A stretch of 64,000 nucleotides of DNA from assembly GCA_963839615.1 (NCBI GenBank), contig CAWIVY010000008.1, positions 535 to 64,534 of the forward strand, given 5' to 3'. A program made the position numbers and the translations under genes. This document shows positions 2 through 55,226 of this stretch, one piece after another. This stretch comes from an uncultured Solirubrobacteraceae bacterium. GTDB lineage: Bacteria; Actinomycetota; Thermoleophilia; Solirubrobacterales; Solirubrobacteraceae. Positions within the stretch are counted from its first letter, which is position 1, and each line of letters starts with the position of its first letter. The notes under the pieces were generated by a model. The model did not search any database and had not been told where the DNA came from. It worked only from the letters and a program-made list of their open reading frames with translations.

Positions 2-712
2 CCCATCCGCGACGATGGCTACCGGCTGAGCGAAACCCGGATCTCGTCGGGCATCGCGCCGCTCGACCGGATGCTCGCCGAGGGGTACACGCCCGGGAGC
101 TCCACGCTGGTGGCCGGGCCGTCCGGTGCCGGCAAGACCCTGATGGGACTCCACTTCATCTTCAGCGGCGCCGCGAATGGCGAGCCCGGCGTGATCGCGA
201 CGCTGCAGGAGAACCCGATCCAGCTCCAGCGGATCGCCCGCGGCTTCGGCTGGTCGCTGGAGGACGAGCGGGTGGCCGTGATGCACCGCTCACCCAACGA
301 CGTCTACATCGACGAATGGGTCTACGAGCTGCTGGAGCTCATCGAGACCACCGGCGCCACGCGCGTGATGATCGACAGCCTCAGCGACCTGCAGTACGCA
401 ACCCCCGATCCCGTGCGCTTCCGCGAGTTCGTCTACTCGCTCACGCAACGCCTCTCACGCGCCGGCATCAGCCCGATCATGACCAGCGAGATCCCCGACC
501 TGTTCCACGTCGGCCGGCTCGCCGAGTACGGCATCTCGCACCTCTCCGACAACGTGGTGCTGCTCCAGTACCTGCGCGCCGAATCACGCCTCCTGCGCAC
601 GGTCACGATCCTCAAGTCACGCGCGAGCGCTCACGACCCCGAGATCCGCGAGTTCGACATCACCCCCGACGGGATCGTCCTCGGAGACCCGATCAGCGGC
701 GACCACGCCTAG
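2..712 (+). CDS. KaiC-like RecA-superfamily ATPase, C-terminal part (5' end outside window)
   Basis: The frame is open from the window edge. It has Walker A GPSGAGKT and KaiC-domain-like organisation (..LQENP..; ..ILKSRASAHDPEIREF..) in the 71..712 ORF. Confidence 0.7.
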   Translation, partial: PIRDDGYRLSETRISSGIAPLDRMLAEGYTPGSSTLVAGPSGAGKTLMGLHFIFSGAANGEPGVIATLQENPIQLQRIARGFGWSLEDERVAVMHRSPNDVYIDEWVYELLELIETTGATRVMIDSLSDLQYATPDPVRFREFVYSLTQRLSRAGISPIMTSEIPDLFHVGRLAEYGISHLSDNVVLLQYLRAESRLLRTVTILKSRASAHDPEIREFDITPDGIVLGDPISGDHA

Positions 713-839
713 CTGGCGCGAGGACGGGGAACCGGCGATCTCCGTCGTGCCCGCCAACGAGGCGAGCTGGGACGACCTGCAGGCGGTCTTCGGCACGCAC
801 GGCCAGGGTCGTGATGCGGGTCGACTTCTGAGGCCTCCG

Positions 840-2063
840 TCATCGCCCGCCGTCGATCTCGTCGCGAGCCACCTGGGGCACGACGTGGAACGCCGCGGCA
901 GCGACCGCGAGCAGCAGCAGCACGACGCCGAGCGCGAGCCCGGCGCCGCGATCCGAGAAGAGCATGAGCGGCACGCCGAGCGTCGCTCCCGCGGCAGCCA
1001 CGACGCCCGCCCGGCGCCCGGGCTCGTGCCCGGCGATGCGCTCGAGCGAGCCGGGCTCGGCCGGCGGCTCGTCGAAGCGCCCGCGCAGCACGAGCCCGAA
1101 CAGCAGCGCGAGCGACGGGATCAGGATCACGGCCCCGATCGCCAGCGACACGAGCAGCGCGACCATCGTTCCGTCGCTCGCGGCGGCCTGCTCGACGGTC
1201 AGCCCGGGCAGCAGCAGCGGTTGCTGCGCCAGCGCCCAGCCCGCGACGATCGCGCCGACCGCGACCGCGGCCGACCAGCGCGCCGGCTCGAGCCTGCGGC
1301 GGGCGACGAAGACCATCGTCGCGACCCCTGCGGCAGCGGATGCGAGTACCGCCGCGAGCCCGCCGCCCGCCGTGAGGCCGTCGTAGACGCGCTCGGCGTC
1401 CGAGCGGAGCACGAACAGCCCGGCAAGTGAGATCGCACCCGCGACGGCCCCCGTGGCGAGCGCGCGCTTGCGGAACGCTTCGACGAGGTCGTCGTGGCCG
1501 GCGCGAGCGGCGTCGGCGGTCAGCCAGACCGCGGCCAGGTAGCTGCTGGTGGCGACGGCCAGCACCCCGATCAGCATCGAGGTCGGGTTCAGCCACGAGT
1601 CGATCGCGTCGCCCGCCGCATTCCCGAGCGGAACCCGCCCGGACGCGATCCCGCCGATCGCCGCGCCGAGCGCGAACGGCGTCAACACCGACGAGGCGCC
1701 GAAGATCGCGCCGAGGACCCGCTCCTCGCGCGGCCCGGACACCGAGCCGCGCACGGCGTAGCACGCGCCGCGCAGGATGATCCCCAGCGCGGCCGCGAAC
1801 AGCGGCACGTACAACGTCGAGAAGATCGCGCCGAACGCGCGCGGATACGCGGTCCACACGACGACGAGGACGAAGATCAGCCAGACGTGGTTCGCCTCCC
1901 ACACCGGACCCATGGCGTGGTAGGTGTGATCGCGCAGCGGCCGCCGTCGCTCGCCCGGCAGCAGCATGTACCAGAGCCCCGCGCCGAAGTCGGCGCCGCC
2001 GAGCACGACGTACGCGGCAAGGCCGACGAGCGCGAGCAGCAGCGGCAGCTCAGCGAGCCCCAT
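840..2063 (-). CDS. cydB: Cytochrome bd ubiquinol oxidase subunit II, with about 70 aa of extra C-terminal hydrophobic extension
   Basis: The N-terminus MGLAELPLLLALVGLAAYVVLGGADFGAG is typical CydB. The protein is polytopic and its start overlaps the cydA stop by 14 nt. Confidence 0.85.
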   Translation of the reverse strand: MGLAELPLLLALVGLAAYVVLGGADFGAGLWYMLLPGERRRPLRDHTYHAMGPVWEANHVWLIFVLVVVWTAYPRAFGAIFSTLYVPLFAAALGIILRGACYAVRGSVSGPREERVLGAIFGASSVLTPFALGAAIGGIASGRVPLGNAAGDAIDSWLNPTSMLIGVLAVATSSYLAAVWLTADAARAGHDDLVEAFRKRALATGAVAGAISLAGLFVLRSDAERVYDGLTAGGGLAAVLASAAAGVATMVFVARRRLEPARWSAAVAVGAIVAGWALAQQPLLLPGLTVEQAAASDGTMVALLVSLAIGAVILIPSLALLFGLVLRGRFDEPPAEPGSLERIAGHEPGRRAGVVAAAGATLGVPLMLFSDRGAGLALGVVLLLLAVAAAAFHVVPQVARDEIDGGR

Positions 2064-3411
2064 CGTCCGCCTCCAGCACGAGCGGCGTGCGCGCGAGCCG
2101 TCGCAGCAGCCAGACGGTGGCCGCGACGAGCGCCGCGTAGATGATCACCAGTGCGGCATAGCCGAGCGGGATGCCGCCGGCGCCGGTGACGGCCTCCTCG
2201 GTACGCATGCGGCCGTAGACGACCCACGGCTGGCGGCCGACCTCGGTCGTCACCCAGCCGGCGATCAGCGCGACCACCGACAGCGGTCCGAGCGCGACCA
2301 CCGTCCGCAGGAACCAGCGTCCGTCGGGCAGCGCGCGGCGCCGCCACCAGACGACCAGCAGCGCGACTCCGAAGCACGCCATCAAGATGCCGATGCCGAC
2401 CATCGTCGCGAATGCGAGCCGCACCACGTTCACGGGCGGACGGTCGTCGGGCGCGACCTCGTCGAGCCCGCGCACCGTCGCGTCCGGGTCATGGAACGCG
2501 AGCAGCGACAGCAGCTTGGGGACGGCGATGCCGCCGCGCACGTCGCCGCGCTCCTCGTCGTACCAGCCGCCGATGCGGAGCGGCGCGCCCGCCTGGGTCT
2601 CGCCGAGGCCCTCGAACGCCGCGAGCTTCGTCGGCTGGTTCGCGGCGACCTCGCGCGCCGCCCAGTCGCCGACGACGACCTGCGCGGGAGCCGTGATCGC
2701 CGCGACCACCAGCGGCACCGCCATCGCCACGCGGACGTAGCGGTCGCTCCGTCCGCGCAGCCGGGCGGCGGCGTAGATGCTCGCGGTGACGAAGCCGGCG
2801 ACCAGGAACGCCGCCAGGTACATGTGCACCAGCTCGTGCCAGAAGTAGGAGTTGCCGAACAGCGCCTTGAACGGCTCGACGTCGACCGCGCGCCCGTTCT
2901 CCAGCCGGAAGCCCGACGGGTGGTTCATCCAGCCGTTGACGCTGATCACCATCAGCGACCCGCTGAAGCCGGCGATCACCACCGGGATGCCGGCGAGCAT
3001 GTGCGCGCGCGCCGACAGCCGGTCCCAGCCATAGACGTAGATCGCGATGAAGATCGCCTCGACGAAGAACGAGAATCCCTCGAGCGCGAACGCCAGCCCG
3101 AACACGTCGCCGTATGTCGCCATGAACTCCGGCCACAACAGCCCGAGCTCGAACGACAGGATCGTCCCTGTGACGACCCCGATCGCGAACAGCGCGACCA
3201 TCGCCTTCGACCAGCGGCGGGCCAGCGCGACCAGGAGCGCGTCCCCGCGGCGGCGGCCGAGCCACTCCATCCCCAGCACGAACGCCGGGAACGCGACGCC
3301 GAAGCAGACGAGCGGGATGTGCACGGCGAACGACAGCGCCTGCATCTGGCGCGCCTCGAGGAGGTAGTCCTGCTCGACCGGGCCGAGCGCCTGGGCGATC
3401 TCGACGAGCAT
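2050..3411 (-). CDS. cydA: Cytochrome bd ubiquinol oxidase subunit I
   Basis: 453-aa polytopic protein with the CydA signature GWVTTEVGRQPWVVYG, directly upstream of cydB. Confidence 0.9.
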   Translation of the reverse strand: MLVEIAQALGPVEQDYLLEARQMQALSFAVHIPLVCFGVAFPAFVLGMEWLGRRRGDALLVALARRWSKAMVALFAIGVVTGTILSFELGLLWPEFMATYGDVFGLAFALEGFSFFVEAIFIAIYVYGWDRLSARAHMLAGIPVVIAGFSGSLMVISVNGWMNHPSGFRLENGRAVDVEPFKALFGNSYFWHELVHMYLAAFLVAGFVTASIYAAARLRGRSDRYVRVAMAVPLVVAAITAPAQVVVGDWAAREVAANQPTKLAAFEGLGETQAGAPLRIGGWYDEERGDVRGGIAVPKLLSLLAFHDPDATVRGLDEVAPDDRPPVNVVRLAFATMVGIGILMACFGVALLVVWWRRRALPDGRWFLRTVVALGPLSVVALIAGWVTTEVGRQPWVVYGRMRTEEAVTGAGGIPLGYAALVIIYAALVAATVWLLRRLARTPLVLEADDGAR

Positions 3412-3437
3412 GCGCTATGTCATACAAGACGCGGGCC

Positions 3438-20827: not shown

Positions 20828-21583
20828 ATGCTCGCGCCGACCGTCATCCCGCCCCGCGGCGGCGAGGTCATCGGCGACTCGGCCGACCGCCGGGTCGAGC
20901 TCCTCTCCGACCACGAGGCCGTGCACGCGACCTGGTCGCGGTTCGGGCCGCACCGCGACGGCGCGGATCTGCACGTCCATCGCCACCACACCGATCTCTT
21001 CTACGTCCTCGCCGGCGAGCTGACCGTGCGGCTGGGTCCCGAGGGGGAGGGGACGGTCGTGCCGGCAGGGATGCTCGCGCGCGTGCCGCCGCTCGTGGTG
21101 CACGGCTTCCGCAACGCGAGCGACGAGGAGCTCCGCTACCTCAACCTCCACGCTCCCGGCCAGGGCTTCGCGGACTACATGCGCGCGCTGCGCGACGGCC
21201 GCAAGCTCGTCTACGACCAGGAGGAGCCGCCCGCGGACGGTGGCCGCCCGGCGACGGAGGCCGTCGTCGGCGGCGGCGAGGAGCGCGACGGCCACGTGGT
21301 GCTCGCGGACGTCGACGAGCTCGGCATCGCGGAGGCGTGGGGCCGGCCCGGCGCCGCGTCGCCGCCCCCGCACGTGCACGAGCGCCACGTCGAGTCGCTG
21401 TACGTGCTCGAGGGCGAGGTCGGGCTCACGCTCGGCGACCGCGGGATCCGGGCGCAGGCGGGCACGTGGGTGCAGGTGCCGCCGGGCGTCCGGCACGCCT
21501 TCTCGTTCCCCGGGTCCGAGCCGGCGCGGTACCTCAGCCTGCACACGCCGAACTGCGGCTTCGGGGCGCTCGACCAGGTCTGA
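20828..21583 (+). CDS. Bicupin-domain protein
   Basis: Two cupin-like halves (..HVHRHHTDLFYVLAGE.. and ..PHVHERHVESLYVLEGE..). TAGACT lies 6 nt upstream of the ATG, suggesting a leaderless transcript. Confidence 0.7.
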   Translation: MLAPTVIPPRGGEVIGDSADRRVELLSDHEAVHATWSRFGPHRDGADLHVHRHHTDLFYVLAGELTVRLGPEGEGTVVPAGMLARVPPLVVHGFRNASDEELRYLNLHAPGQGFADYMRALRDGRKLVYDQEEPPADGGRPATEAVVGGGEERDGHVVLADVDELGIAEAWGRPGAASPPPHVHERHVESLYVLEGEVGLTLGDRGIRAQAGTWVQVPPGVRHAFSFPGSEPARYLSLHTPNCGFGALDQV

Positions 21584-21598
21584 CGAGGGCGCCGCGCG

Positions 21599-22537
21599 TC
21601 AGGCCCGCGCGCCGCTGGCCCGCAGCTGCTCGCGCAGCCGCAGCAGCGCGAGGTCCTTCGCCTTGGCCTCGAGCATGACGTCGAAGTCGTGACCCGTGGC
21701 GACCTCCTCGAGGAACCACTCGAAGCCGATCGGGTCGATCAGGTCGGCGTGTGCCCGCAGCTGCGGCAGGACGATCGTCCGCTCGACGCGCCGTCCCACT
21801 CGCCGCGTGCGCTCCTCGAGCGCCGTCTTCGGCGTCGAGTAGTGGATCTTCGGCGCCACTCCGTCCGGCCACGTGTCGAGCGCGAGCCCGAGCGCCTCGC
21901 GGTCCGGGATCCCGTGCGGATCGTGGCAGTGGTGGTGCAGCGTGTCCCAGACGACCGGACGGGCGATCGCCGCGGCGAGTCGCAGCACGTCGCCCAGGCC
22001 GTACGAGCGGTCGTCGTTCTCCACGACGAGGCGTGCGCGGGCGGCGTCGGAGAGCAGCTCGAAGCCCTGCTCGAAGCGCTCGATCCCGGCGTCGACGCCG
22101 CCGGCCGCGCCGCCGACGTGGAGCACCACGACGGATTCCTCGCCCAGGCCCATGCCGTCCATGAGCTCGGCCTGGACCTCGAGCTCGGCGGCGGCGAGCC
22201 GGCGCGTCTCCGGGTTCTCGGAGTTCAGCACCGTGTACTGACCGGGATGGCTGGTCAGGCGGATCCCCAGCTCGCGGGCGCGCGCGCCGACCGCGGCGAG
22301 ACGCTCGGCACAGCGCGCCGGCTGATCGCGGAACTGCGTCAGCTCGGGGTGGCTGGCGTAGGGCGCCAGGCTGGTCGCCATCCGGTAGAAGCGGATGTCG
22401 TTGTCGTCGAGGTAGGACACGATCGCCTCGAGGCGGTCGAGCGACACCGAGAGGTCCGGTCCCGACTGCCAGCGGCGCGTGTCGTGCGACGGGAGCCCGC
22501 CGGCGCCGAGCACCTTGACGGCGAATCCGAGGCGCAC
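21599..22537 (-). CDS. uvsE: UV-damage endonuclease
   Basis: MRLGFAVKVLG..., TIM-barrel UvdE pattern. The GTG start at 22537 is 1 nt after the upstream TAG. Confidence 0.85.
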   Translation of the reverse strand: MRLGFAVKVLGAGGLPSHDTRRWQSGPDLSVSLDRLEAIVSYLDDNDIRFYRMATSLAPYASHPELTQFRDQPARCAERLAAVGARARELGIRLTSHPGQYTVLNSENPETRRLAAAELEVQAELMDGMGLGEESVVVLHVGGAAGGVDAGIERFEQGFELLSDAARARLVVENDDRSYGLGDVLRLAAAIARPVVWDTLHHHCHDPHGIPDREALGLALDTWPDGVAPKIHYSTPKTALEERTRRVGRRVERTIVLPQLRAHADLIDPIGFEWFLEEVATGHDFDVMLEAKAKDLALLRLREQLRASGARA

Positions 22538-22538
22538 G

Positions 22539-23492
22539 CTAGCCCAGCACCGCCGCGAGCGGCACGAGCGCGTACTCGAGGAAGAAGAGCTTCCAGACGC
22601 GCATGTAGAACGTGGTGAACGACGCGGGATCCAGCGGATCGGTCGCCGCGCTCATGCCCCAGAGCAGCGCGAGCGCGGCCAAGTGGGTGGCGGCGAGCAC
22701 GACCGGCGCGACGGAGTCGAGCAGGAGCGGCCCGGCGACCGCCATCCCGAGGTAGGCGACGCTCAGGGCGGCGAGCCCGATCCGCAGGACGCGCCCGGCG
22801 CCGAGCCGCAGCGTGAAGGTCGCGATGCGGAAGCGGCGGTCGCCCTCGGCATCGGGGACGTCCTTGAGGATCGCGATCGCGAACGAGAACGGGACCACGA
22901 ACAGCGTCAGCGCCCACACCGGGTCCGGCACCGACCAGCCGCCGTCGCCGAGCGACTGCGTGAAGTGCAGCGCGACGCCGAGGTTCACCACCAGCGACCG
23001 CACCGCCGTGATGCTCAGCGAGGCCAGCGCGGGATATCGCTTCAGCCGCAGCGGCGGCACGGAGTACGCGGTGCCGACGGCGAGCCCGGCGAGCACCGCG
23101 AGCGTCTCGACCGCGCCCTGGGTGAGGCCGAGCACGACCGGGAGGACGCCGCAGACCGCGACGATGCGGCGCGCCGCGGCGATCGTGAGCTCGCCGCTCG
23201 CGAGCGGGAGGAACGGCTTGTTGACGCGGTCGATCTCGACGTCCTCGAGCTGGTTGACGCCGACGATGTAGACGTTGACGCAGAAGCCGGCGAGCAGCGT
23301 CCAGGCGAGGTCTCCGATCCCGTCCGCGAAGCCGACGCCGGGGAGCGCGTCGATGCAGAGCACGTAGAGCCCCGCGATGCTCGCGGCCGTGCCGATGACG
23401 GTGTGCGGCCTGGTGAAGCGCCAGAACGCCGTGGCCCGGGCCGCCAGCACGGCGCCGCCGGCCGCTTGCAGCCTCGTGGCGCGGCCCGTCAC
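22539..23492 (-). CDS. UbiA-superfamily aromatic prenyltransferase, homogentisate phytyl/geranylgeranyl-transferase-like
   Basis: NQLEDVEIDRVNKPFLPLASGE and KDVPDAEGDRRF motifs. The GTG at 23492 overlaps the upstream TGA (GTGA). The longer 420-aa ORF extension overlaps the methyltransferase and is Arg/Ala junk. Confidence 0.8.
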   Translation of the reverse strand: MTGRATRLQAAGGAVLAARATAFWRFTRPHTVIGTAASIAGLYVLCIDALPGVGFADGIGDLAWTLLAGFCVNVYIVGVNQLEDVEIDRVNKPFLPLASGELTIAAARRIVAVCGVLPVVLGLTQGAVETLAVLAGLAVGTAYSVPPLRLKRYPALASLSITAVRSLVVNLGVALHFTQSLGDGGWSVPDPVWALTLFVVPFSFAIAILKDVPDAEGDRRFRIATFTLRLGAGRVLRIGLAALSVAYLGMAVAGPLLLDSVAPVVLAATHLAALALLWGMSAATDPLDPASFTTFYMRVWKLFFLEYALVPLAAVLG

Positions 23493-24292
23493 CTCGCGTG
23501 GCGCTCCTGCAGCCTGTGGCGGAGCGCGAGCGCCGCCGCGAGCGGCACGAAGAGCGCGCCCGCCAGCGATCCGCCGGCGAAGCGCAGCGACGAGCGCACG
23601 ACGCCGGCCCGCGCCGGCTCGGCCGGCGGCGGGAGCGCCAGCGGCGAGGCGCCGGCGGCCGGCTTGCGCCCGCTCACGGCGACCGCGTACGCGCCTTGTC
23701 CGCGATACCAGGTCGGCGCCAGGGTCCGCAGCTCGATGTCGGCGAAGCCCGCCCGGCTGAGCAGCTCCACGTACTGCGCCTCCGTCGGGAAGAGCATCCA
23801 CGCCTCCGCGAGCCGCCGCGCCAGCGCGTTGGCCGGCCGTACCGGGCCGATGACGACCGCCCGCCCCTCAGCGCGCAGGACGCGGTAGGCCTCGGTGATC
23901 GCGCGCTGCGGCTCGGGCCAGTACTCGATGCTGCCGGCCGACACGTAGCGATCGAAGCTGTCGGCCGCGAAGGGCAGGTCCTCGGCGTCGCCGATCACCT
24001 TCGCGCAGCGCTCGAGCGCCGGCTTCGCCCGCGCGCGCGCCAGCTGGTGCGGGCTCTGGTCGAGCATCGTGACGTGCTCGGGATCGACGTGCTCGACGAT
24101 CCCCTCGGTCGTGAAGCCGGTGCCGGCGCCGACGTCGAGCGTGCGCAGCGCGCGCTCGTCCAACCCGGCCGCGACGAGCGCGCTCGCGCGCATCGCCGGC
24201 GTCCAGAACAACGGGTTGACCCAGCGGTCGTAGACGAGCGAGAGCACCCGGTAGAACCAGTACGCCTCGGTCTTGTGCTGCAGCAGCCGCAC
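23489..24292 (-). CDS. SAM-dependent methyltransferase, VTE3-like (MPBQ/MSBQ methyltransferase type)
   Basis: LLQHKTEAYWFYRVLSLVYDRWVNP..W N-terminus, SAM motif LDVGAGTGFTT and a C-terminal hydrophobic tail. Confidence 0.75.
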   Translation of the reverse strand: MRLLQHKTEAYWFYRVLSLVYDRWVNPLFWTPAMRASALVAAGLDERALRTLDVGAGTGFTTEGIVEHVDPEHVTMLDQSPHQLARARAKPALERCAKVIGDAEDLPFAADSFDRYVSAGSIEYWPEPQRAITEAYRVLRAEGRAVVIGPVRPANALARRLAEAWMLFPTEAQYVELLSRAGFADIELRTLAPTWYRGQGAYAVAVSGRKPAAGASPLALPPPAEPARAGVVRSSLRFAGGSLAGALFVPLAAALALRHRLQERHAR

Positions 24293-24314
24293 CCGTCGGG
24301 CACTCTACGACGCA

Positions 24315-24857
24315 GTGTCGCCCTCGCCCCCCGATCTCGATCGCTGGCTCCCCGACGCGACCGTCCGCACCGAGCATCGGCGCACCGCGGCCGCCGGGCC
24401 CGATGCGCTCTGGCGCGCCGCCCAGGAGATCCGGATCGCCGACACGCGGAGGCTCGGACGCCTGGTCCGCTGGCGGATCCCGGGCACGCCCGCGAAGCGG
24501 CGCTACGCCCAGCTCTTCCGCGGCTATCCGTTCACCGTGCTCGACGAGGGCGAGCGCCACCTCGTCTCCGGGCTGTGCGGCCGGATCTGGACCGTGGACC
24601 GCGACTACCCGCGGCTCGACGGGCCCGCCGACTTCACGGCCTGGGATCAGCCGTGCACGGTGCGCGTGCTGTTCGCGCACTGGGTCACGCCCGCCGGGGA
24701 CGAGCGGGCGCAGCTGAGCAGCGAGACGCGCGTCGAGGCGGTCGACCGTCAGGCGTCGGTGCGGCTCAAGGCGCTGTGGACCGTGATCGGCCGCTTCGAG
24801 CCACTTGTCGGCGCCGAGCCGCTCAAGCTGGCCGCTCGCCGTGCGGAGACCGGCTGA
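24315..24857 (+). CDS. Hypothetical protein, SRPBCC/DUF2867-like (start uncertain, GTG 24315 proposed)
   Basis: The ORF is divergent from the methyltransferase. The composition and pattern resemble ligand-binding SRPBCC proteins, but family assignment is weak. Confidence 0.4.
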   Translation: MSPSPPDLDRWLPDATVRTEHRRTAAAGPDALWRAAQEIRIADTRRLGRLVRWRIPGTPAKRRYAQLFRGYPFTVLDEGERHLVSGLCGRIWTVDRDYPRLDGPADFTAWDQPCTVRVLFAHWVTPAGDERAQLSSETRVEAVDRQASVRLKALWTVIGRFEPLVGAEPLKLAARRAETG

Positions 24858-25806
24858 GCGGAAGGCCGAGCTCGAGCCCCGCGAGCGGCGAGCGGCCGTC
24901 GAAGAGCAGGCGCCCTCCGCGTCGCACCCGCAGCGCGAGGCTGCCGGCCAGATGCTGGCGCGACCGCGGCTCGCCGCGCTCCTCGGCGGCGACGGGGACG
25001 AGCAGCTCGTGCGGATCGCCGCCGTCGGCGTCGCCCGCGATCTCGACGTCGTAGCCGCGCCCGCGCGTTCGCAGCAGCCAGCTTCCCGGCGCCAGGGTGA
25101 CGCGCGTGCTGTCCAGGGGCGGCGCCAGCGCGATGACCCGGCGGCCCAGCCGGACCACCACCGCCGTCGGCGCGACCTCTGCGCCGGCGAGCGGGATGCG
25201 GCCGCCCGCGAACGAGACCGAGACGTCATCGTCGCCGAACGTCGCGGCGTGGCCCCACCACCAGCGCCCGGGAAAGCCGTGACCCCAGTTCTTCTCGGCG
25301 TAGCCCACGGCCCCGTCGAGGTCGAGCTCGAGGTCGCCGGCGCGGACCCGGCCACGCACCCGGGCCGAGAGCACGACCGGATGCCAGTACTGCGGCAGCC
25401 ACGGGATCGCATGCGCGAGGCCGATCGCCCCGAACGCCCGGCGCGGCCATGCGACGACGTCGTGCAGCGAGACGTCCAGCCGCGCGTCCGCGCCCATGTC
25501 CACCGACAGCGACGCGGAATCTCCGCGCAGCACCCGCCCGGCAGTCACGCCGAACGCCCGCGGGTCCGCCGCAGCGGTCCGCGTGATCTCGGTCCGCGCG
25601 AAGCCGCCGGGGTGCGCGGCGAGCGTGCTCAGTCCCCAAGGCCCGTCCGGCCCGCGGCAGACTGCGCTCAGGGCGACGACGACCGCTCCGCTCGCGGGAT
25701 CGACGATGCGCCAGTAGCAGCCCTCGAAGGGAACGCCGTGGGCCGCGGCGGGATCGCCGAACGGGAGGTCCGCGCCGCGGGCACGGTACGCGCTCGTCCA
25801 GCTCAT
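24823..25806 (-). CDS. Tocopherol-cyclase-family protein
   Basis: YAEKNWGHGFPGRWWWG motif, as in VTE1/PF14249. The ATG at 25806 (MSWTSAY..) avoids overlap with ligA. Confidence 0.75.
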   Translation of the reverse strand: MSWTSAYRARGADLPFGDPAAAHGVPFEGCYWRIVDPASGAVVVALSAVCRGPDGPWGLSTLAAHPGGFARTEITRTAAADPRAFGVTAGRVLRGDSASLSVDMGADARLDVSLHDVVAWPRRAFGAIGLAHAIPWLPQYWHPVVLSARVRGRVRAGDLELDLDGAVGYAEKNWGHGFPGRWWWGHAATFGDDDVSVSFAGGRIPLAGAEVAPTAVVVRLGRRVIALAPPLDSTRVTLAPGSWLLRTRGRGYDVEIAGDADGGDPHELLVPVAAEERGEPRSRQHLAGSLALRVRRGGRLLFDGRSPLAGLELGLPLSRSPHGERPA

Positions 25807-25825
25807 CTCACCTACCGTACGGGGC

Positions 25826-27832
25826 ATGAGCACGAGCACGGACCCCCGCGAGCGCATCGAGGACCTCGCCGCCCGGATCGTCGCGCTCCGCGAGGCCTAC
25901 TACCAGGGCGACCCGCTCGTCGCCGACGCGGACTACGACGCGCTCGAGGACGAGTTGCGCGCCCTGATCGCAGCGCACCCGAAGCTCGCGCCCGACCCCA
26001 ACCCGCTCGAGACCGTCGGCGCGCCGGCGGTGCTGCACTCGCCGGTGCGCCACTCGCGGCCGATGCTGTCGCTCGAGAAGGCGAGCAGGCCGGAGCAGGT
26101 CGCCGCCTTCTTCGACCGCTTCCCGGGCCAGCCGGTCGTCGTGATGCCGAAGCTCGACGGGCTCTCGCTCGCGCTCGTGTACGAGGGCGGCCGCCTGCGC
26201 TGCGCGATCACGCGCGGCGACGGCACGACCGGCGATGACGTGACGATGCTCGTGCGCGCGCTCGCCGACGGCGTGCCCGAGACCGTCGACGCCACCGGCC
26301 GCGTCGAGGTCCGCGGCGAGCTCGTGATGCTGCGCTCGACCTTCGCGGCCTACAACGCCGCGCATCCCGACAAGCCGCTGATCAACCCGCGCGGCGCGGC
26401 GGCGGGGACGATCCGCGCCAAGGACCCGGCCGTCGTCGCGGAGCGCCGGCTGCGGTTCTTCGCCTTCGACCTCGACACCGACGACGGCGTCCAGGCCGAC
26501 GTGGAGGCGGCGCTGCGCACGCTCGGGTTCGAGGCGGCCGACATGCGCCACTGCGACGACGCGGCCGCGGCGCAGGAGGTGATCGGCGCGATCGAGGCGG
26601 AGCGGGCGGACCTCGACTACGACCTCGACGGCGCGGTGCTGCGGCTCGCCGACCGCAACGCCTACGCCGCGGCCGGCACGCGGTCCAACAGCCCGCGCGG
26701 GGCGCTCGCGTTCAAGTACGCCGCCGAGGAGAAGACGACCGTGCTCGCCGACGTCATCTGGGACGTCGGCAAGATCGGCAAGGTCGCCCCGGTCGCAGTG
26801 CTCGAGCCGGTGTTCGTCGGCGGCACGACGGTGACGCGGGCGACGCTGGCCAACCAGGAGGTGATCCGCGCGCGTGACGTCCGCATCGGCGACACCGTGC
26901 TCGTGCGCCGCGCCGGCGACGTGATCCCGTTCGTGGCCGGCGTCCTCGACGCAGCGGGCCGCACCGGCGCGGAGCGCGAGATCGTCGCGCCCGCCGAGTG
27001 CCCTTCCTGCGCCCAGCCGCTGACCGAGCAGGGAAACAGCCGCGAGCTGTACTGCACGAACGTCGCCTGCCCCGCCCAGACCGTGCGGCGGCTGATCCAC
27101 TGGGCGTCGCGCGCGGCCGCGGACATCGAGGCGGTCGGCCCGGTCTGGATCGAGCGCCTCTGCGAGGCCGGGCTGCTCGAGCGCCCGTCGGACTTCTACG
27201 CGCTCGGGCGCGACGACCTGCTCGCGTTCGACGGCATCGCGGAGATCTCGGCCGACCGGATGCTCGAGTCGATCGCCGCCAGCCGCGGGGTCGGGCTGCG
27301 CCGCGCGCTGATCGGCATGGCGATCCCGATGGCCTCCGAGGCCGCCGCCACGCGCCTCTGCCGCGCCGGGTACCGCAACCTCGAGGAGGTCGCCGACGCG
27401 GGCGAGGACGCCCTGCAGCAGGTCGAGGACATCGGGCCGAAGGTCGCGGCGAGCCTGTACTCGCATCTCGCGCGCGACAGCACCCGCGCCGAGATCGCGC
27501 GCCTGCGCGAGCTCGGCGTCGACCTCGACGTCCGCGAGGAGGACCTGCCGCCGGAGGTCGTGTCCGGCGCGCCGCTCGCCGGCAAGACGGTCGTGGTCAC
27601 CGGCACGATCGCCGATCCGCGCAGCGGCGAGAAGGTCGCACGGCCCGTCTTCCAGCGGCTCTGCGAGCGCGCGGGCGCGACAACCGCCTCGTCCGTATCG
27701 GCCAACACCGACATCCTGATCTGCGGCGCCGACGTCGGCGCCGCGAAGACCGCGAAGGCGGAGAAGCTCGGCGTCGACGTCGTCGACCAGGCGGAGATCT
27801 GGCAGCTGCTGATCGGCGCCGGGGTCGCCTGA
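25826..27832 (+). CDS. ligA: NAD-dependent DNA ligase
   Basis: Adenylation motif VMPKLDG, Zn finger CPSCAQPL..C.N..CPAQ, HhH repeats and a BRCT C-terminus. Confidence 0.95.
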   Translation: MSTSTDPRERIEDLAARIVALREAYYQGDPLVADADYDALEDELRALIAAHPKLAPDPNPLETVGAPAVLHSPVRHSRPMLSLEKASRPEQVAAFFDRFPGQPVVVMPKLDGLSLALVYEGGRLRCAITRGDGTTGDDVTMLVRALADGVPETVDATGRVEVRGELVMLRSTFAAYNAAHPDKPLINPRGAAAGTIRAKDPAVVAERRLRFFAFDLDTDDGVQADVEAALRTLGFEAADMRHCDDAAAAQEVIGAIEAERADLDYDLDGAVLRLADRNAYAAAGTRSNSPRGALAFKYAAEEKTTVLADVIWDVGKIGKVAPVAVLEPVFVGGTTVTRATLANQEVIRARDVRIGDTVLVRRAGDVIPFVAGVLDAAGRTGAEREIVAPAECPSCAQPLTEQGNSRELYCTNVACPAQTVRRLIHWASRAAADIEAVGPVWIERLCEAGLLERPSDFYALGRDDLLAFDGIAEISADRMLESIAASRGVGLRRALIGMAIPMASEAAATRLCRAGYRNLEEVADAGEDALQQVEDIGPKVAASLYSHLARDSTRAEIARLRELGVDLDVREEDLPPEVVSGAPLAGKTVVVTGTIADPRSGEKVARPVFQRLCERAGATTASSVSANTDILICGADVGAAKTAKAEKLGVDVVDQAEIWQLLIGAGVA

Positions 27833-45080: not shown

Positions 45081-45980
45081 CTAGGACGCTAGAGCAGCGC
45101 CCGCGTCGCGCGCGAGCCGCGCGGGCGTGTCGTCGTCGAAGCTCGCGAAGAAGCCCCCGACGCGGTCGGTCAGCTCGCCCATGCCGTCACAGGCGAAGAG
45201 GATCGGCTGGTAGTGGGTGATGTCGTACTCGAGCGTCGCCATGACGTGGAAGTCGACCGGCCGGATGTCGGCCGCGCGGAACTCCTCGATCTCGCCGTAG
45301 GAGGACAGCAGCCCGGCGCCGTAGCAGCGCAGCTCGCCCTCCTCGCGCATGACGCCGAACTCGATCGTGAACCAGAAGACGTCGGCGAGGTACTGCAGGC
45401 CCTCGGCGGTCTCGCAGCGCCGCGCGGCCTCGCCGGCGAGCCGCTTGACGGTGGCGATCTGCGGATCGGCGAGCAGGTTCCCATGCCCGATCACCTCGTG
45501 CACGATGTCGGGCTCGGGCGTGTAGAGCGGGCTGCTCGGATGGCGCAGGTACTGCGTCGAGTGGAACACCCGGTCGGCCAGCGCGCCGTAGAACTCGTCG
45601 AGCGGGACGAGGCCGGCAGCGGGGTGGAACTCGAAGCCGGTGAGCGGCTCGAGCCGGGCCGTCACCTCGTCGAGCTGGGGCACGTAGTCGGCGGGCAGCG
45701 CGAGCGCGGCCTTGGCCTCGCGGAACGCGCGGCAGGCGAGCCGCTCGTGCTTCGGGGCGAGCTCGCGGCAGACCGTGCGCCAGATCTCGTGCTCGGCCTC
45801 CGTGTAGTCCACGCGCGGGATCGGCTCGCCCGGCTGCCAGGAGAAGGCTCCGGCGGCGATCTCGTTGCGGCGTAGGCGGTAGTCGGGATCGCCGGCTCCG
45901 GGATGGTCGTCGGCGAGGTGGACCTTGACGCCGTCAGGGCCGTCGGTCACAGGTGCGTAGAGCTGCCCTTCTTCGAACAT
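45081..45980 (-). CDS. phhA: Phenylalanine-4-hydroxylase (aromatic amino acid hydroxylase)
   Basis: PEPDIVHEVIGHGNLL iron-binding motif; 299 aa, the bacterial PAH size. Confidence 0.85.
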   Translation of the reverse strand: MFEEGQLYAPVTDGPDGVKVHLADDHPGAGDPDYRLRRNEIAAGAFSWQPGEPIPRVDYTEAEHEIWRTVCRELAPKHERLACRAFREAKAALALPADYVPQLDEVTARLEPLTGFEFHPAAGLVPLDEFYGALADRVFHSTQYLRHPSSPLYTPEPDIVHEVIGHGNLLADPQIATVKRLAGEAARRCETAEGLQYLADVFWFTIEFGVMREEGELRCYGAGLLSSYGEIEEFRAADIRPVDFHVMATLEYDITHYQPILFACDGMGELTDRVGGFFASFDDDTPARLARDAGAALAS

Positions 45981-46041
45981 GCCCGGGTTCTACGCGCGCG
46001 CTCCGGCCGCCACAAGCACGCAGTGCGTATCGTTACGCGCC

Positions 46042-46506
46042 ATGACAACAATGGAACGACTCGGCGACATGGATCGCAAGATTCTTGTGCTTCTGCAGCG
46101 AGAAGGGCGCCGGTCGTTCGCGGACATCGGGCGCGAGGTGGGCCTGTCGACCCCTGCGGTCAAGCGCCGCGTCGACCGGCTCGAGGCCGCCGGCGTGATC
46201 CGCGGCTACGCCGCGGTGGTCGACGCGTCCAAGCTCGGCTTCGGCTTCGAGGCGATCGCCGAGGTCTACTGCGCCGATCGCACCGCGCCGCACGACGTGC
46301 TCGAGAGCGTCGTCGGGATCCCCGAGGTCGTGAGCGCGGTGACGGTGTCGGGCGAGCCCGACGCGGTCCTGCGCGTGCAGGTCGACGACATCCGCCATCT
46401 CGAGCGCCTGATCGAGACGCTGCGCAGGCGACCTAACGTCGTGCGCACGCGGACGATGATCGTCCTCTCGGTGCTGGTGGACAGGCCGTCGGCCTTGCCC
46501 ATGTAA
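46042..46506 (+). CDS. Lrp/AsnC-family transcriptional regulator
   Basis: LDRKILVLLQREGRRSFADIGREVGLSTPAVKRRVDRLE HTH plus a RAM domain. Divergent from phhA. Confidence 0.85.
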   Translation: MTTMERLGDMDRKILVLLQREGRRSFADIGREVGLSTPAVKRRVDRLEAAGVIRGYAAVVDASKLGFGFEAIAEVYCADRTAPHDVLESVVGIPEVVSAVTVSGEPDAVLRVQVDDIRHLERLIETLRRRPNVVRTRTMIVLSVLVDRPSALPM

Positions 46507-49458: not shown

Positions 49459-49573
49459 AGGCCCTGACGCGCGACCAGAGCCAGCGCGCCAGCAGCTCCG
49501 CCCAGTCGGCGACGCCGGCCCAGAGATGACCGAGCGGGCCGGTGACCAGCCATGCCGCGAGCCGGGAGAGCAC
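49445..49573 (-). CDS. Possible 42-aa Trp-rich small protein antisense to the tig leader
   Basis: GTG start, GC3 about 90%. The N-terminal 27 aa are conserved in duplication copy B (53024..), where the ORF loses its stop. Confidence 0.25.
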   Translation of the reverse strand: MLSRLAAWLVTGPLGHLWAGVADWAELLARWLWSRVRAFSGR

Positions 49574-49600
49574 GGGGCGACGGTATCGTGAGGGCCGCCC

Positions 49601-51001
49601 ATGGCCGCCCCGACCGTCTCCACATCCGTCACCGAGCTGCCCGAGTCGCGCGTGCGCGTCGAGGCGCAGGTGCCGCCAGAGGAGGTCGAGAAGAGCATCG
49701 CGCAGGCGGCGCGCGCGCTCGGCCGCAACATGCGCGTGCCCGGCTTCCGCGCCGGCAAGGCGCCGGCGCCGGTGGTGATCAAGCGGGTCGGGCGCGATGC
49801 CGTGCTCGACGAGGCCGTGCGCGACTCGATCGGCGCCTGGTACTCGGCGGCGATCGACGCCGCCGCGATCGTCCCGGTCGGCGAGCCCCAGCTCGACATG
49901 GGCGAGCTGCCCGGCCAGGGCCAGCCGCTGACGTTCTCGATCGAGATCGGCGTCCGCCCCACGGCGAAGCTCGGCGAGTACAAGGGCCTCGAGGTCGGCA
50001 AGCGCGAGCCCGGCGCCGCCGACGAGGCCGTCGACGCCGAGGTCGAGCGGCTGCGCGAGCGCTCCGGCCGGCTCGAGACCGTCGAGCGCGCGGCGGCCGA
50101 GGGCGACTTCGTGGTGATGGACTACCTGGGCACGCTCGACGGCGAGGCGTTCGCCGGCGGCGAGGGCCGCGACCAGATGGTCGAGCTCGGCTCGGGCCGG
50201 CTCGTCCCGGGCTTCGAGGAGCAGCTCACCGGCGCGACGCGCCGGCGAGGAGCGCACGGTCAAGGTCACGTTCCCCGACGACTACGGCGCCGCGGAGCTG
50301 GCCGGCAAGGAGGCCGAGTTCGCCGTCACGGTCAAGGAGATCAAGGCCAAGGAGCTGCCCGAGCGTCGACGACGAGCTCGCCGCCGAGGCCGGCTTCGAC
50401 ACGCTCGACGAGCTGCGCGACGACATCCGCGAGCGGCTCGCCGAGGGCGAGGAGAAGCGGATCGAGGCCGAGTTCCGCGAGGCGGTGCTCGACGCCGCCG
50501 TCGCCGGCGCCGACGATCGACGTGCCCGACGCGCTGGTCGAGGCGCGCGCGCGCGAGCTGTGGGACCAGATGCTGCACTCGCTCTCCCACCAGGGGATCT
50601 CGAAGGAGATGTACCTGCAGATCTCCGGGGGCGCACGGAGGAGGACATCGTCGAGGAGGGCAAGGCCGACGCCGAGCGGCAGCTCAAGCGCGAGGCGGTG
50701 CTCGCCGCGGTGGTCGCGGCCGAGGTCGATCGAGCCGTCCGAGGAGCGAGGTCCTCGCGGCGCTCGAGGAGGCCGCGCCGTCGGAGCGCACGAGCGCCAA
50801 GAAGCTGCTCGAGCGGATGCGGTCCGCCGGCCGCCTGGACGCCTTCAAGGCCGAGCTCGCGCAGCCGCAAGGCGCTCGACCTCCTGGCCGACTCCGCGAC
50901 CGCGATCACGCGTCGAGCAGGCGCAGGCGCGAGACAAGCTCTGGACCCCCGGACAGGACGCCGAGGAGCGCTCCCGGCAGCTCTGGACTCCCGGGTCGTG
51001 A
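49601..51001 (+). pseudogene. tig: Trigger factor, copy A, disrupted by eight 1-nt indels
   Basis: The first 208 aa are about 90% identical to copy B. After that the translation alternates between sense and nonsense. Indels relative to copy B lie near 50238, 50364, 50512 (+1 each), 50635 (-1), 50726 (+1), and 50747, 50866, 50911 (+1 each). Confidence 0.8.
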
Positions 51002-51009
51002 CCCCAGTC

Positions 51010-51036
51010 TTGACGGCCCTTCCCGATTGCTAGACT
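51010..51036 (+). promoter_or_regulatory. Candidate clpP promoter (TTGACG-N15-TAGACT), copy A
   Basis: The hexamers and their spacing are conserved in copy B, whereas the flanking intergenic sequence diverges. Confidence 0.4.
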
Positions 51037-51112
51037 CGCGCCGAGACGAGCGGGCGGCGAGAGCTGCTCGCCGTGCAGGATTAGGCGCCGAACGCGAAAC
51101 GAAGCGAGGACC

Positions 51113-51697: not shown

Positions 51698-51713
51698 GCT
51701 CGCGGAGGACTTC

Positions 51714-52984
<1,271 letters not shown>

Positions 52985-52988
<4 letters not shown>

Positions 52989-53023
52989 CTTTTTGGTGGA
53001 TGAGGGAAGGGGGGAGGTAGAGC
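52985..53023. other. 39-nt unique junction filler between duplication copies
   Basis: CTAGCTTTTTGGTGGATGAGGGAAGGGGGGAGGTAGAGC. It is almost C-free and purine/T-rich, unlike its surroundings, and has no counterpart at the outer ends of the duplication. Confidence 0.8.
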
Positions 53024-54527: not shown

Positions 54528-54534
54528 CCCCAGT

Positions 54535-55224: not shown

Positions 55225-55226
55225 CA

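What the first reader, a model, noticed from the sequence alone, without database searches (positions are those of the whole stretch)
21599..25806. Vitamin-E-type (tocochromanol) gene set in a genome segment with no phototrophy genes, chained to a UV-damage endonuclease
Three neighbouring minus-strand genes carry hallmark motifs of the plant/cyanobacterial tocopherol pathway.
- 22539..23492 has the homogentisate-prenyltransferase signatures NQLEDVEIDRVNKPFLPLASGE and KDVPDAEGDRRF.
- 23489..24292 begins LLQHKTEAYWFYRVLSLVYDRWVNP..W, has LDVGAGTGFTT and a C-terminal hydrophobic tail, like the Arabidopsis/archaeal-type MPBQ/MSBQ methyltransferase VTE3.
- 24823..25806 has YAEKNWGHGFPGRWWWG, as in tocopherol cyclase (VTE1, PF14249).

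The methyltransferase and prenyltransferase overlap by GTGA. The prenyltransferase TAG is 1 nt from the GTG start of uvsE. A lipid-antioxidant pathway and UV-lesion repair therefore look co-transcribed. NAD-ligase ligA is divergent from the cyclase with only a 19-nt gap. An SRPBCC-like (lipid-binding?) gene sits between the methyltransferase and the cyclase. No HPPD or gamma-TMT is in the window; phhA at 45 kb could feed the tyrosine/homogentisate branch. Tocochromanol synthesis is classically regarded as restricted to oxygenic phototrophs. An actinobacterial-type operon of this composition would be unusual and, to my knowledge, uncharacterised.
Basis: partly seen in the sequence, partly recalled or inferred. 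Interest (0 to 1): 0.75.

Follow-up and report, generated by a model that had tools for sequence, protein, structure and literature searches.

The report
Vitamin-E-type lipid genes in soil actinobacteria
A non-photosynthetic soil actinobacterium (Solirubrobacteraceae-like) carries a conserved gene cluster matching the three core enzymes of plant and cyanobacterial vitamin E synthesis plus an uncharacterised lipid-binding-type protein, which suggests that vitamin-E-like antioxidant lipids are made outside phototrophs; the link to a UV-repair gene is a local accident of gene order.

Summary
The prenyltransferase (22539-23492) passes NCBI's homogentisate phytyltransferase model (348.6 bits, cutoff 226). 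The methyltransferase (23489-24292) is 52% identical over its full length to Arabidopsis VTE3. The cyclase-like protein (24823-25806) passes PF14249 and keeps the YxEKNWG motif, but it is only a distant relative of plant VTE1.

The set is conserved, not a chance grouping.
- In HPT-seeded metagenome contigs with room to judge, the methyltransferase is adjacent in 41/41 and the cyclase in 24/25.
- In some lineages the three genes form one co-directional operon.
- A fourth gene (24315-24857, + strand, no Pfam family, helix-grip/SRPBCC-like predicted fold) accompanies the cyclase in about three quarters of loci.

- That fourth gene lies on the opposite strand. In this window the cyclase is therefore not co-transcribed with the methyltransferase and prenyltransferase.
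- uvsE adjacency occurs only in close relatives (3/45 and 1/39 loci).
- No HPPD, gamma-TMT or prenyl-diphosphate genes are linked.

In other Thermoleophilia the cyclase/SRPBCC pair sits beside a MenA-type prenyltransferase instead.

Most likely product: a homogentisate-derived dimethyl-prenyl-benzoquinol cyclised to a gamma-type chromanol. I found no paper describing this.

The parts
22539..23492 (-). Homogentisate prenyltransferase (HPT/VTE2-type UbiA enzyme), 317 aa
   Evidence: - NF009525 'homogentisate phytyltransferase' equivalog: 348.6 bits against a cutoff of 226, covering model positions 13-308 of 310. The next best model is ChlG at 54 bits.
- PF01040: 120 bits.
- Asp-rich motifs NQLEDVEID and KDVPDAEGD are read directly from the sequence.
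- An independent gene call in near-identical contig L161 also gives 317 aa.
- 47% identity over the full length to Synechocystis slr1736.
23489..24292 (-). VTE3-type MPBQ/MSBQ C-methyltransferase with a C-terminal hydrophobic tail, 267 aa
   Evidence: - BLASTP against At3g63410 (P0122, retrieved from the database): 52% identity over 267 aa, E 3e-86. The match includes the N-terminal QHKxEAYWFYR block and the C-terminal tail.
- Class I SAM methyltransferase domains.
- No NCBIfam model reaches its cutoff; UbiE/MenG models score only 52-59 bits.
- It lies directly upstream of HPT in 41 of 41 metagenome loci with room to judge.
24315..24857 (+). Conserved uncharacterised 180-aa protein with a helix-grip (SRPBCC/Bet v1-like) predicted fold; a partner of the cyclase
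   Evidence: - GC3 of 0.93 marks it as coding.
- 3654 homologue clusters, all named 'hypothetical', with no Pfam family.
- AF2 model: pLDDT 93.4, pTM 0.88.
- The best Foldseek PDB hits are the ZhuI and WhiE aromatase/cyclases, norcoclaurine synthase, PR-10 and PYR/PYL. E is 3e-5 and probability 1.0, but TM-scores are only 0.3-0.44.
- It lies next to the cyclase in 58 of 80 genome loci and in 26 of 34 HPT-seeded loci.
24823..25806 (-). Tocopherol-cyclase-family protein of the bacterial 'TC-like' clade, 327 aa
   Evidence: - PF14249: 65.8 bits against a cutoff of 26.6, covering profile positions 126-334.
- Y169, E171, K172, N173, W174 and W182-G185 are invariant in 40 homologues.
- AF2 model: pLDDT 88.3, pTM 0.89.
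- Foldseek places it in the AttH / kievitone hydratase / decalin synthase double beta-barrel group; 2ich scores E 1e-9.
- It is within reach of HPT in 24 of 25 HPT-seeded loci.
21599..22537 (-). uvsE/uvdE UV-damage endonuclease, appended downstream of HPT in this lineage only
   Evidence: - PF03851, E 6e-48; TIGR00629, 141.9 bits against a cutoff of 124.45.
- A 1-nt spacer separates it from the HPT stop.
- The adjacency is seen only in L001, L081, L082 and L161, all close relatives.

Best explanation
The window carries the Thermoleophilia version of the core tocochromanol/prenyl-benzoquinol pathway.

Inferred steps, taken from the known chemistry of the three families:
1. The HPT-type UbiA enzyme condenses homogentisate with a prenyl diphosphate of unknown chain length and saturation, with decarboxylation. 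The product is a 2-methyl-6-prenyl-1,4-benzoquinol.
2. The VTE3-type methyltransferase adds the second ring methyl, giving a 2,3-dimethyl-prenyl-benzoquinol.
3. The tocopherol-cyclase-family beta-barrel protonates the first prenyl double bond, and the phenolic oxygen closes the chromanol ring. The product is a gamma-type chromanol, that is, a tocotrienol- or tocopherol-like membrane antioxidant.

The conserved 180-aa helix-grip protein most likely binds or presents the hydrophobic quinol, as Coq10/START-type proteins do.

Homogentisate and the prenyl donor must come from unlinked genes. No gamma-TMT is linked, so an alpha-type product is not predicted.

uvsE is a recent downstream addition in this lineage. 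It is probably co-transcribed here but is not part of the conserved unit.

What is shown: family membership and conserved linkage. What is inferred: substrates, product and physiological role.
For: Family membership:
- HPT equivalog model at 348.6 bits against a cutoff of 226.
- MT is 52% identical over its full length to authentic At3g63410.
- The cyclase is above the PF14249 cutoff and its YxEKNWG motif is invariant.

Linkage:
- Of the 80 best TC-seeded genome loci, 40 carry HPT and 39 carry MT in the same order.
- Seeded from HPT, MT is adjacent in 41/41 loci and TC in 24/25.
- Where the 180-aa gene is absent (L098, L130), TC, MT and HPT are co-directional and abutting, so they form an operon.

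Mechanism:
- The cyclase model matches enzymes that act on prenyl or polyene C=C bonds: kievitone hydratase, the AttH fold and decalin synthases.

Stress context:
- Mn-catalase and UvdE lie upstream of the cluster in L130.
- AhpC/AhpF lie beside the TC-like gene in Rhodococcus maanshanensis.
- TC is listed among oxidative-stress neighbours of heliorhodopsins (10.1101/2021.02.16.431466).
Against: - The cyclase is only distantly related to VTE1.
- In the motif FP+xWxW+QxNxF, the Q and N are replaced (read directly).
- The same TC-like clade occurs without HPT/MT within 10 kb in Rhodococcus and Mycobacterium, and beside MenA in 8 loci. Its substrate need not be a benzoquinol.
- No HPPD, gamma-TMT, GGPP synthase or geranylgeranyl reductase is in the window or conserved nearby.
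- There are no lipid data, and no cultured strain carrying the HPT-linked cluster was identified.
Confidence: 0.6

Rival explanations
1. The end product is a plastoquinone-like dimethyl-prenyl-benzoquinone, used as a redox carrier or quinol antioxidant. HPT and the VTE3-type MT suffice to make it, as HST and VTE3 do in plants. The TC-like and helix-grip proteins then do something other than chromanol ring closure, such as hydrating or cyclising the prenyl tail, or chaperoning the quinone.
For: - In plants HST plus VTE3 yields plastoquinol without a cyclase (established pathway knowledge).
- The TC-like protein is a distant family member.
- Its structural neighbours include hydratases and lyases as well as cyclases.
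- The TC/helix-grip pair also sits in operons with a MenA-type naphthoquinone prenyltransferase and occurs alone in Rhodococcus and Mycobacterium.
- A quinol oxidase, cydAB, is in the window.
Against: - TC is linked to HPT in 24 of 25 loci and forms a tight TC-MT-HPT operon in some lineages.
- The YxEKNWG motif, proposed as catalytic in genuine cyclases (PMC4963081), is invariant.
- HPT scores as the cyanobacterial phytyltransferase equivalog. No bacterial solanesyltransferase model was available for comparison.
Confidence: 0.22
2. One reading: the lipid-antioxidant genes and uvsE form one functional UV-protection operon, selected as a unit.
For: - MT/HPT overlap by 4 nt and HPT/uvsE are 1 nt apart.
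- No terminator-like site lies in 21000-26200.
- A second, different arrangement in L130 has UvdE and Mn-catalase upstream of TC-MT-HPT.
Against: - uvsE follows HPT in only 1 of 39 HPT-bearing genome loci and 3 of 45 metagenome loci, all close relatives.
- What lies downstream of HPT varies: ligA in L098, unrelated genes elsewhere.
- ligA adjacency is likewise confined to close relatives.
Confidence: 0.1
3. The prenyltransferase uses an aromatic acceptor other than homogentisate, and the cluster makes an unrelated meroterpenoid natural product.
For: - No HPPD is linked.
- UbiA enzymes shift substrate readily (general knowledge).
- The helix-grip fold resembles polyketide aromatase/cyclases.
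Against: - The equivalog-level HMM score for HPT and 52% identity of the MT to VTE3 argue for conserved substrates.
- No polyketide, NRPS or tailoring genes are conserved nearby.
- The cluster sits among housekeeping genes.
Confidence: 0.08

Closest known systems
Cyanobacterial and plant tocopherol core pathway (HPT/VTE2 = slr1736, MPBQ methyltransferase VTE3, tocopherol cyclase VTE1 = slr1737)
   Same: The same three enzyme families are present, and the predicted reaction order is the same. HPT scores as an equivalog of the cyanobacterial enzyme. The MT is 52% identical to plant VTE3. The cyclase is in PF14249 and carries YxEKNWG.
   Different: - The host is a non-phototrophic Thermoleophilia bacterium.
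- The genes are clustered. From my own knowledge, in Synechocystis only slr1736 and slr1737 are neighbours, and the plant genes are dispersed.
- The MT is of the plant VTE3 type, not the cyanobacterial Sll0418 type.
- The cyclase is a distant, shorter (327 aa) bacterial clade.
- An extra conserved helix-grip protein is present.
- No linked HPPD or gamma-TMT was found.
Plant plastoquinone/plastochromanol branch (HST, VTE3, VTE1)
   Same: The same enzyme families would give a dimethyl-prenyl-benzoquinol and, with the cyclase, a chromanol. Chain length alone decides which.
   Different: The window prenyltransferase matches the phytyltransferase model. The chain length is unknown, and there is no photosynthetic electron transport to serve.
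Bacterial 'tocopherol cyclase-like' proteins of heterotrophs (PMC4963081, 2016)
   Same: The window cyclase belongs to this group. Rhodococcus and Mycobacterium homologues are 44-47% identical, and the YxEKNWG motif is shared.
   Different: That paper left the function open and reported no linkage to HPT or VTE3. Here the Thermoleophilia clade is physically linked to both.
Coq10/START (SRPBCC) quinone-binding proteins and polyketide aromatase/cyclases
   Same: The predicted helix-grip fold of the 180-aa protein, and its genomic association with prenylquinone enzymes.
   Different: There is no detectable sequence similarity. TM-scores are only 0.3-0.44, and the model has fewer strands than the canonical fold.
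AttH/CrtC-like beta-barrel enzymes (kievitone hydratase, Fsa2/Phm7/CghA decalin synthases)
   Same: The overall double beta-barrel fold of the cyclase model, and chemistry on prenyl or polyene double bonds.
   Different: Sequence identity is 9-13%. By sequence the window protein belongs to a different Pfam family (PF14249).

Membership tests
Homogentisate prenyltransferase (HPT/VTE2, UbiA superfamily) | Scores above the curated cutoff of an HPT-specific model and well above sister UbiA clades (ChlG, MenA, DGGGP synthase) | tested here: met
   NF009525 scores 348.6 bits against a cutoff of 226. ChlG scores 54 bits against a cutoff of 313. GGGP-type models score 40-52 bits. No MenA model is listed.
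Homogentisate prenyltransferase (HPT/VTE2, UbiA superfamily) | Two Asp-rich motifs, NQxxDxxxD and KDxxDxxGD | tested here: met
   NQLEDVEID and KDVPDAEGD, read from the translation.
Homogentisate prenyltransferase (HPT/VTE2, UbiA superfamily) | Phylogenetic placement inside the HPT clade relative to HST and HGGT, and choice of prenyl donor | not tested
No reference set for HST or HGGT was available.
Homogentisate prenyltransferase (HPT/VTE2, UbiA superfamily) | Homogentisate-dependent prenylation activity | not testable with these tools
   Needs an enzyme assay.
VTE3-type MPBQ/MSBQ methyltransferase | Full-length colinear similarity to At3g63410, including the N-terminal QHKxEAYWFYR block and the C-terminal membrane tail | tested here: met
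   52% identity over 267 aa, E 3e-86, against P0122 'At3g63410'.
VTE3-type MPBQ/MSBQ methyltransferase | Class I SAM-binding domain | tested here: met
   PF08241 at 73 bits, PF13649 at 66 bits.
VTE3-type MPBQ/MSBQ methyltransferase | C-methylation of 2-methyl-6-prenyl-benzoquinol | not testable with these tools
   Needs an enzyme assay.
Tocopherol cyclase (VTE1/Slr1737, PF14249) | Pfam PF14249 above the gathering score | tested here: met
   65.8 bits against 26.6, E 4.8e-18. Only profile positions 126-334 are aligned.
Tocopherol cyclase (VTE1/Slr1737, PF14249) | Conserved motifs YxEKNWG and FP+xWxW+QxNxF (PMC4963081) | tested here: inconclusive
   YAEKNWG is present and invariant in homologues. 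The second motif reads FPGRWWWGHAATF: FP, W.W and F are kept, Q and N are replaced.
Tocopherol cyclase (VTE1/Slr1737, PF14249) | Orthology with the VTE1 of phototrophs, meaning close and full-length similarity | tested here: inconclusive
No NCBIfam hit. The clade also occurs without HPT.
Tocopherol cyclase (VTE1/Slr1737, PF14249) | Chromanol ring closure activity | not testable with these tools
   Needs an assay or lipidomics.
Complete tocopherol pathway | Presence of HPPD, gamma-TMT (VTE4) and a phytyl/GGPP supply | tested here: not met
   None was found among about 57 window proteins. No HPPD motif occurs in the window or in 1.84 Mb of related loci. The rest of the genome could not be searched.
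SRPBCC (Bet v1/START) superfamily, for the 180-aa protein | Sequence-profile membership | tested here: not met
   No Pfam family at E up to 10. No PDB sequence match.
SRPBCC (Bet v1/START) superfamily, for the 180-aa protein | Helix-grip fold | tested here: inconclusive
   The AF2 model has pLDDT 93.4. The top Foldseek hits are all SRPBCC proteins (E 3e-5, probability 1.0), but TM-scores are 0.3-0.44 and rmsd is 8-11 A.
UvsE/UvdE UV-damage endonuclease | Above the equivalog cutoff | tested here: met
   TIGR00629 at 141.9 bits against 124.45; PF03851 at 163.8 bits.

The most novel reading that the evidence does not exclude
Non-phototrophic soil Thermoleophilia make genuine tocochromanols (vitamin-E-type chromanols) from a compact four-gene module. 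The same cyclase plus helix-grip pair has also been re-coupled to a MenA-type prenyltransferase in Baekduia/Capillimicrobium-type genomes. That would imply a second, undescribed lipid class: chromanol-type cyclised menaquinols. Vitamin E synthesis would then not be restricted to oxygenic phototrophs. The plant-type VTE3 methyltransferase, which is unlike the cyanobacterial Sll0418 type, would have close actinobacterial relatives that bear on its origin.
Probability: 0.4. Interest if true: 0.85.

Novelty: new variant of a known kind. Interest (0 to 1): 0.66.

Why it matters
Textbooks and reviews state that tocochromanols are made only by photosynthetic organisms (for example PMC5745509 and PMC5789312, listed). 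This cluster is conserved and widespread in soil Actinomycetota: 219 TC-type loci in species-representative genomes and 273 HPT-type stretches in metagenomes. It makes the opposite claim directly testable by expressing four genes.

If confirmed, it would:
- change the view of who produces vitamin-E-type antioxidants in soils;
- give compact bacterial genes for tocotrienol engineering;
- assign a function to a family of more than 3,600 hypothetical-protein clusters (the 180-aa helix-grip protein) and to the bacterial 'tocopherol cyclase-like' proteins left unexplained since 2016;
- inform the non-cyanobacterial ancestry of plant VTE3.

Tried and rejected
- Conserved extra pathway genes. Clustering ORFs from 80 loci found no family beyond TC, the 180-aa protein, MT and HPT in more than 12 loci. 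The commoner neighbours are transporters, nadC, prfB and an M16 peptidase.
- HPPD. Regex searches for HPPD C-terminal motifs over the window and 160 loci (1.84 Mb) found nothing. The whole genome cannot be searched with these tools.
- Sequence-based identification of the 180-aa protein. A Pfam scan of 17 members at E up to 10 and a profile search of PDB sequences gave nothing meaningful.
- Profile search of PDB sequences with the cyclase family: no hit, so no solved structure exists.
- Consensus promoter and terminator scan of 21000-26200: no sites. This says little for a genome with about 73% GC.
- Exact-sequence look-up of the window MT: not on record. The nearest contig is L161, at 96-98% amino-acid identity.
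- Literature. Ten full-text searches found no paper on HPT/VTE3/TC clusters in Thermoleophilia or other non-phototrophic bacteria. Cheng et al. 2003 (the VTE3 paper) is not held.
- uvsE as a core member: rejected on conservation.
- ligA divergence as meaningful: rejected, because it is seen only in close relatives.
- Not used: the search of protein representatives, because it returns neither names nor taxonomy.

Full report
ORGANISM AND OBSERVATION

The window has about 73% GC. Its closest protein relatives come from Solirubrobacteraceae and Thermoleophilaceae metagenome-assembled genomes.

- uvsE, 21599-22537 (-)
- A UbiA prenyltransferase, 22539-23492 (-)
- A methyltransferase, 23489-24292 (-)
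- A tocopherol-cyclase-family gene, 24823-25806 (-)
- ligA, 25826-27832 (+)

The junctions are exact.
- The HPT stop TAG (22541-22539) is followed by one nucleotide and then the uvsE GTG (22537).
- The MT stop TGA overlaps the HPT GTG, giving GTGA at 23492-23489.
- Nineteen nucleotides separate the cyclase ATG (25806) from the ligA ATG (25826).

One correction matters. The gene between the methyltransferase and the cyclase is on the + strand. Codon-position GC marks it as coding, with GC3 of 0.93. Its homologues are about 180 aa, so it most likely starts at the GTG at 24315 and ends at 24857. It therefore diverges from the methyltransferase across a 22-nt gap. It also overlaps the cyclase gene's 3' end by 35 nt in convergent orientation. 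In this organism the cyclase is not on the MT-HPT-uvsE transcript.

WHAT EACH PROTEIN IS

Prenyltransferase. It scores 348.6 bits on NCBIfam NF009525, 'homogentisate phytyltransferase' (equivalog, cutoff 226), aligned over nearly the whole model. The next best UbiA clade is chlorophyll synthase at 54 bits. The two Asp-rich motifs are present. A BLASTP to Synechocystis slr1736 gave 47% identity over the full length.

Methyltransferase. It has only generic SAM-MT Pfam domains and reaches no NCBIfam cutoff. The collection returned P0122, 'At3g63410 [Arabidopsis thaliana]', at 100% identity and coverage. That validates the reference. The window protein is 52% identical to P0122 over all 267 residues (E 3e-86), including the N-terminal QHKxEAYWFYR block and the C-terminal hydrophobic tail. 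It is a VTE3-type MPBQ/MSBQ methyltransferase, not a UbiE/MenG type; those models score 52-59 bits.

Cyclase-like protein. It passes PF14249 (65.8 bits, cutoff 26.6), but only profile positions 126-334 align. It matches no NCBIfam model. The YxEKNWG motif, proposed as catalytic in PMC4963081, is invariant in 40 homologues. The neighbouring FP+xWxW+QxNxF motif is only partly kept. An AlphaFold model (pLDDT 88.3, pTM 0.89) is an all-beta double barrel. Its best PDB matches are AttH (2ich, E 1e-9), kievitone hydratase, the decalin-forming Fsa2/Phm7/CghA enzymes and 25-phosphosteroid lyase. These enzymes act on prenyl or polyene double bonds. That fits the protonation-initiated ring closure of a tocopherol cyclase, but it does not prove it. 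The family has no solved structure.

THE FOURTH GENE

The 180-aa protein has 3654 homologue clusters. All are unnamed and none has a Pfam domain. Its AlphaFold model is confident (pLDDT 93.4). The top Foldseek hits are all helix-grip (SRPBCC/Bet v1) proteins: the ZhuI and WhiE aromatase/cyclases, norcoclaurine synthase, PR-10 and PYR/PYL. E is 3e-5 and probability 1.0, but TM-scores are only 0.3-0.44. By analogy with Coq10/START proteins, a role in binding a hydrophobic quinol is the most economical inference.

CONSERVATION

A scan of 185,579 species-representative genomes with the cyclase family found 219 relatives. I examined the best 80, each with 10-kb flanks.
- The 180-aa gene is present near the cyclase in 58.
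- HPT is present in 40 and the VTE3-type MT in 39, nearly always in the window's order and orientation: TC, then the opposite-strand 180-aa gene, then MT, then HPT.
- All HPT-linked loci are Thermoleophilia or unclassified Actinomycetota MAGs.

The reciprocal scan was seeded with HPT in metagenome contigs. It returned 273 relatives, of which the best 80 were kept. Among loci with enough flanking DNA to judge:
- MT is directly upstream in 41 of 41.
- The cyclase is present in 24 of 25.
- The 180-aa gene is present in 26 of 34.

Where the 180-aa gene is missing (for example L098 and L130), TC, MT and HPT are co-directional and abutting. They then form a true three-gene operon. No other gene family is conserved around the cluster. 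A rough neighbour-joining tree of the cyclases shows that genomic context follows phylogeny.

VARIANTS THAT QUALIFY THE INTERPRETATION

In eight HPT-less loci from Baekduia, Capillimicrobium and other Solirubrobacterales, a MenA-type prenyltransferase sits beside the cyclase/180-aa pair. It scores 125.9 bits on TIGR00751 against a cutoff of 102. In L040 the order is TC-MenA-180aa and in L065 it is MenA-180aa-TC, all on one strand. An alpha/beta hydrolase lies upstream in L065.

In Rhodococcus and Mycobacterium the cyclase-like gene stands alone. In R. maanshanensis it lies next to AhpC/AhpF. In R. oryzae it lies next to a 4HBT thioesterase and an isochorismatase.

The cyclase/helix-grip pair is therefore a module that attaches to different aromatic prenyltransferases. 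Its substrate in this window is inferred from linkage, not from close orthology to VTE1.

uvsE AND ligA

uvsE follows HPT only in close relatives.
- L001 among the 39 HPT-bearing genome loci.
- L081 and L082 among 45 metagenome loci with room downstream.
- The near-identical contig L161.

ligA adjacency is likewise confined to close relatives. One diverged contig, L130, has a UvdE fragment and a Mn-catalase upstream of TC-MT-HPT. Together with the AhpC/AhpF neighbour in Rhodococcus and the heliorhodopsin-neighbourhood survey, this gives a weak, recurring stress theme. It does not make a conserved operon. Co-transcription of MT-HPT-uvsE in this organism is a reasonable inference from the 4-nt overlap and the 1-nt spacer. 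The consensus scan found no terminator or promoter, which says little at this GC content.

MISSING PARTS

About 57 window proteins were scanned. None is an HPPD, a gamma-TMT, a polyprenyl synthase, a geranylgeranyl reductase or a phototrophy gene. phhA is real (PF00351, 242 bits) and has an AsnC-type regulator beside it, but it lies 20 kb away and is unlinked. HPPD motifs are absent from the window and from 1.84 Mb of related loci. Substrate supply must be encoded elsewhere, and I could not search the rest of the genome.

MECHANISM AND RIVALS

The best-supported reading has confidence of about 0.6. Homogentisate plus a prenyl diphosphate gives a methyl-prenyl-benzoquinol (HPT). This is methylated to a dimethyl-prenyl-benzoquinol (VTE3-type MT). 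It is then cyclised to a gamma-type chromanol (TC-like), with the helix-grip protein handling the lipid.

The main rival has confidence of about 0.2. In that reading the quinol or quinone itself is the product, as in plant plastoquinone synthesis, and the TC-like and helix-grip proteins modify or chaperone prenylquinones more generally. The MenA-linked variants and the distance from VTE1 favour this rival. The near-invariant TC-HPT linkage and the operon variants oppose it.

The UV-operon reading and an unrelated-meroterpenoid reading are less likely.

NOVELTY

Reviews state that tocochromanols are made only by photosynthetic organisms (for example PMC5745509 and PMC5789312). PMC4963081 (2016) noted tocopherol-cyclase-like proteins in heterotrophic bacteria and left their function open. 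Ten full-text searches found no paper describing an HPT/VTE3/TC cluster in non-phototrophic bacteria. Source annotations already name the parts; one homologue is labelled 'tocopherol cyclase family protein'. The genes are therefore not unseen, but the pathway is uncharacterised.

I rate it a new variant of a known kind. The chemistry is known. What is new is an unexpected lineage, a distant cyclase clade, a conserved accessory protein and a MenA-coupled sister arrangement.

LIMITS

- Everything about substrates and products is inference.
- The trees are rough.
- My gene calling in related loci used a GC3 filter that loses some genes.

Noticed in passing
window 49492-56507: The trigger factor-clpP-clpX block of about 3.5 kb is duplicated in tandem (49.5-53.0 kb and 53.0-56.5 kb) at 92-97% nucleotide identity. 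The Pfam domain scores of the two ClpX copies are nearly identical. This is either a real recent duplication or an assembly artefact.
   Followed up: partly
L018, L024, L025, L039, L040, L061, L064, L065 (about 10 kb around the cyclase): In these Baekduia, Capillimicrobium and other Solirubrobacterales genomes the cyclase-like and 180-aa genes lie beside a MenA-type DHNA prenyltransferase instead of HPT and MT. TIGR00751 scores above its cutoff. In L040 and L065 all three genes are on one strand and tightly packed. This hints at a cyclised-menaquinol product.
   Followed up: partly
L060 7412-11023; L069 8843-11020: In Rhodococcus the TC-like gene stands without HPT or MT. In R. maanshanensis it lies next to AhpC and AhpF. 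In R. oryzae it overlaps a 4HBT-family thioesterase and lies next to an isochorismatase.
   Followed up: partly
L130 2461-8900: A diverged metagenome contig has a Mn-catalase and a UvdE (apparently frameshifted) upstream of a co-directional TC-MT-HPT operon. This is a second, independent juxtaposition of UV and oxidative-stress genes with the cluster.
   Followed up: partly
window 24293-24314: Only 22 nt separate the divergent start codons of the methyltransferase (GTG 24292, - strand) and the 180-aa gene (GTG 24315, + strand). Both promoters must therefore lie inside the neighbouring coding regions, or the mRNAs are leaderless.
   Followed up: no
window 20828-21583 (+): A bicupin protein (two Cupin_2 domains, E 1.8e-30) converges on the uvsE 3' end with a 15-nt gap. 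It is not conserved next to the cluster.
   Followed up: partly
window 2-3414: A KaiC-family ATPase fragment lies at the window edge (2-712). Cytochrome bd quinol oxidase subunits II and I follow (840-2144 and 2050-3414, - strand).
   Followed up: no
window 45081-46506: phhA, a biopterin-dependent aromatic amino acid hydroxylase (PF00351, 242 bits), has a divergent AsnC/Lrp-type regulator. No hppD or hmgA lies beside it.
   Followed up: partly
window 56508-62596: Several long ORFs with high GC3 (56508-57434, 57372-58214, 59783-61015, 61382-62596) have no Pfam match at E 1e-4. Their second-codon-position GC is unusually high, so some may not be genes.
   Followed up: no
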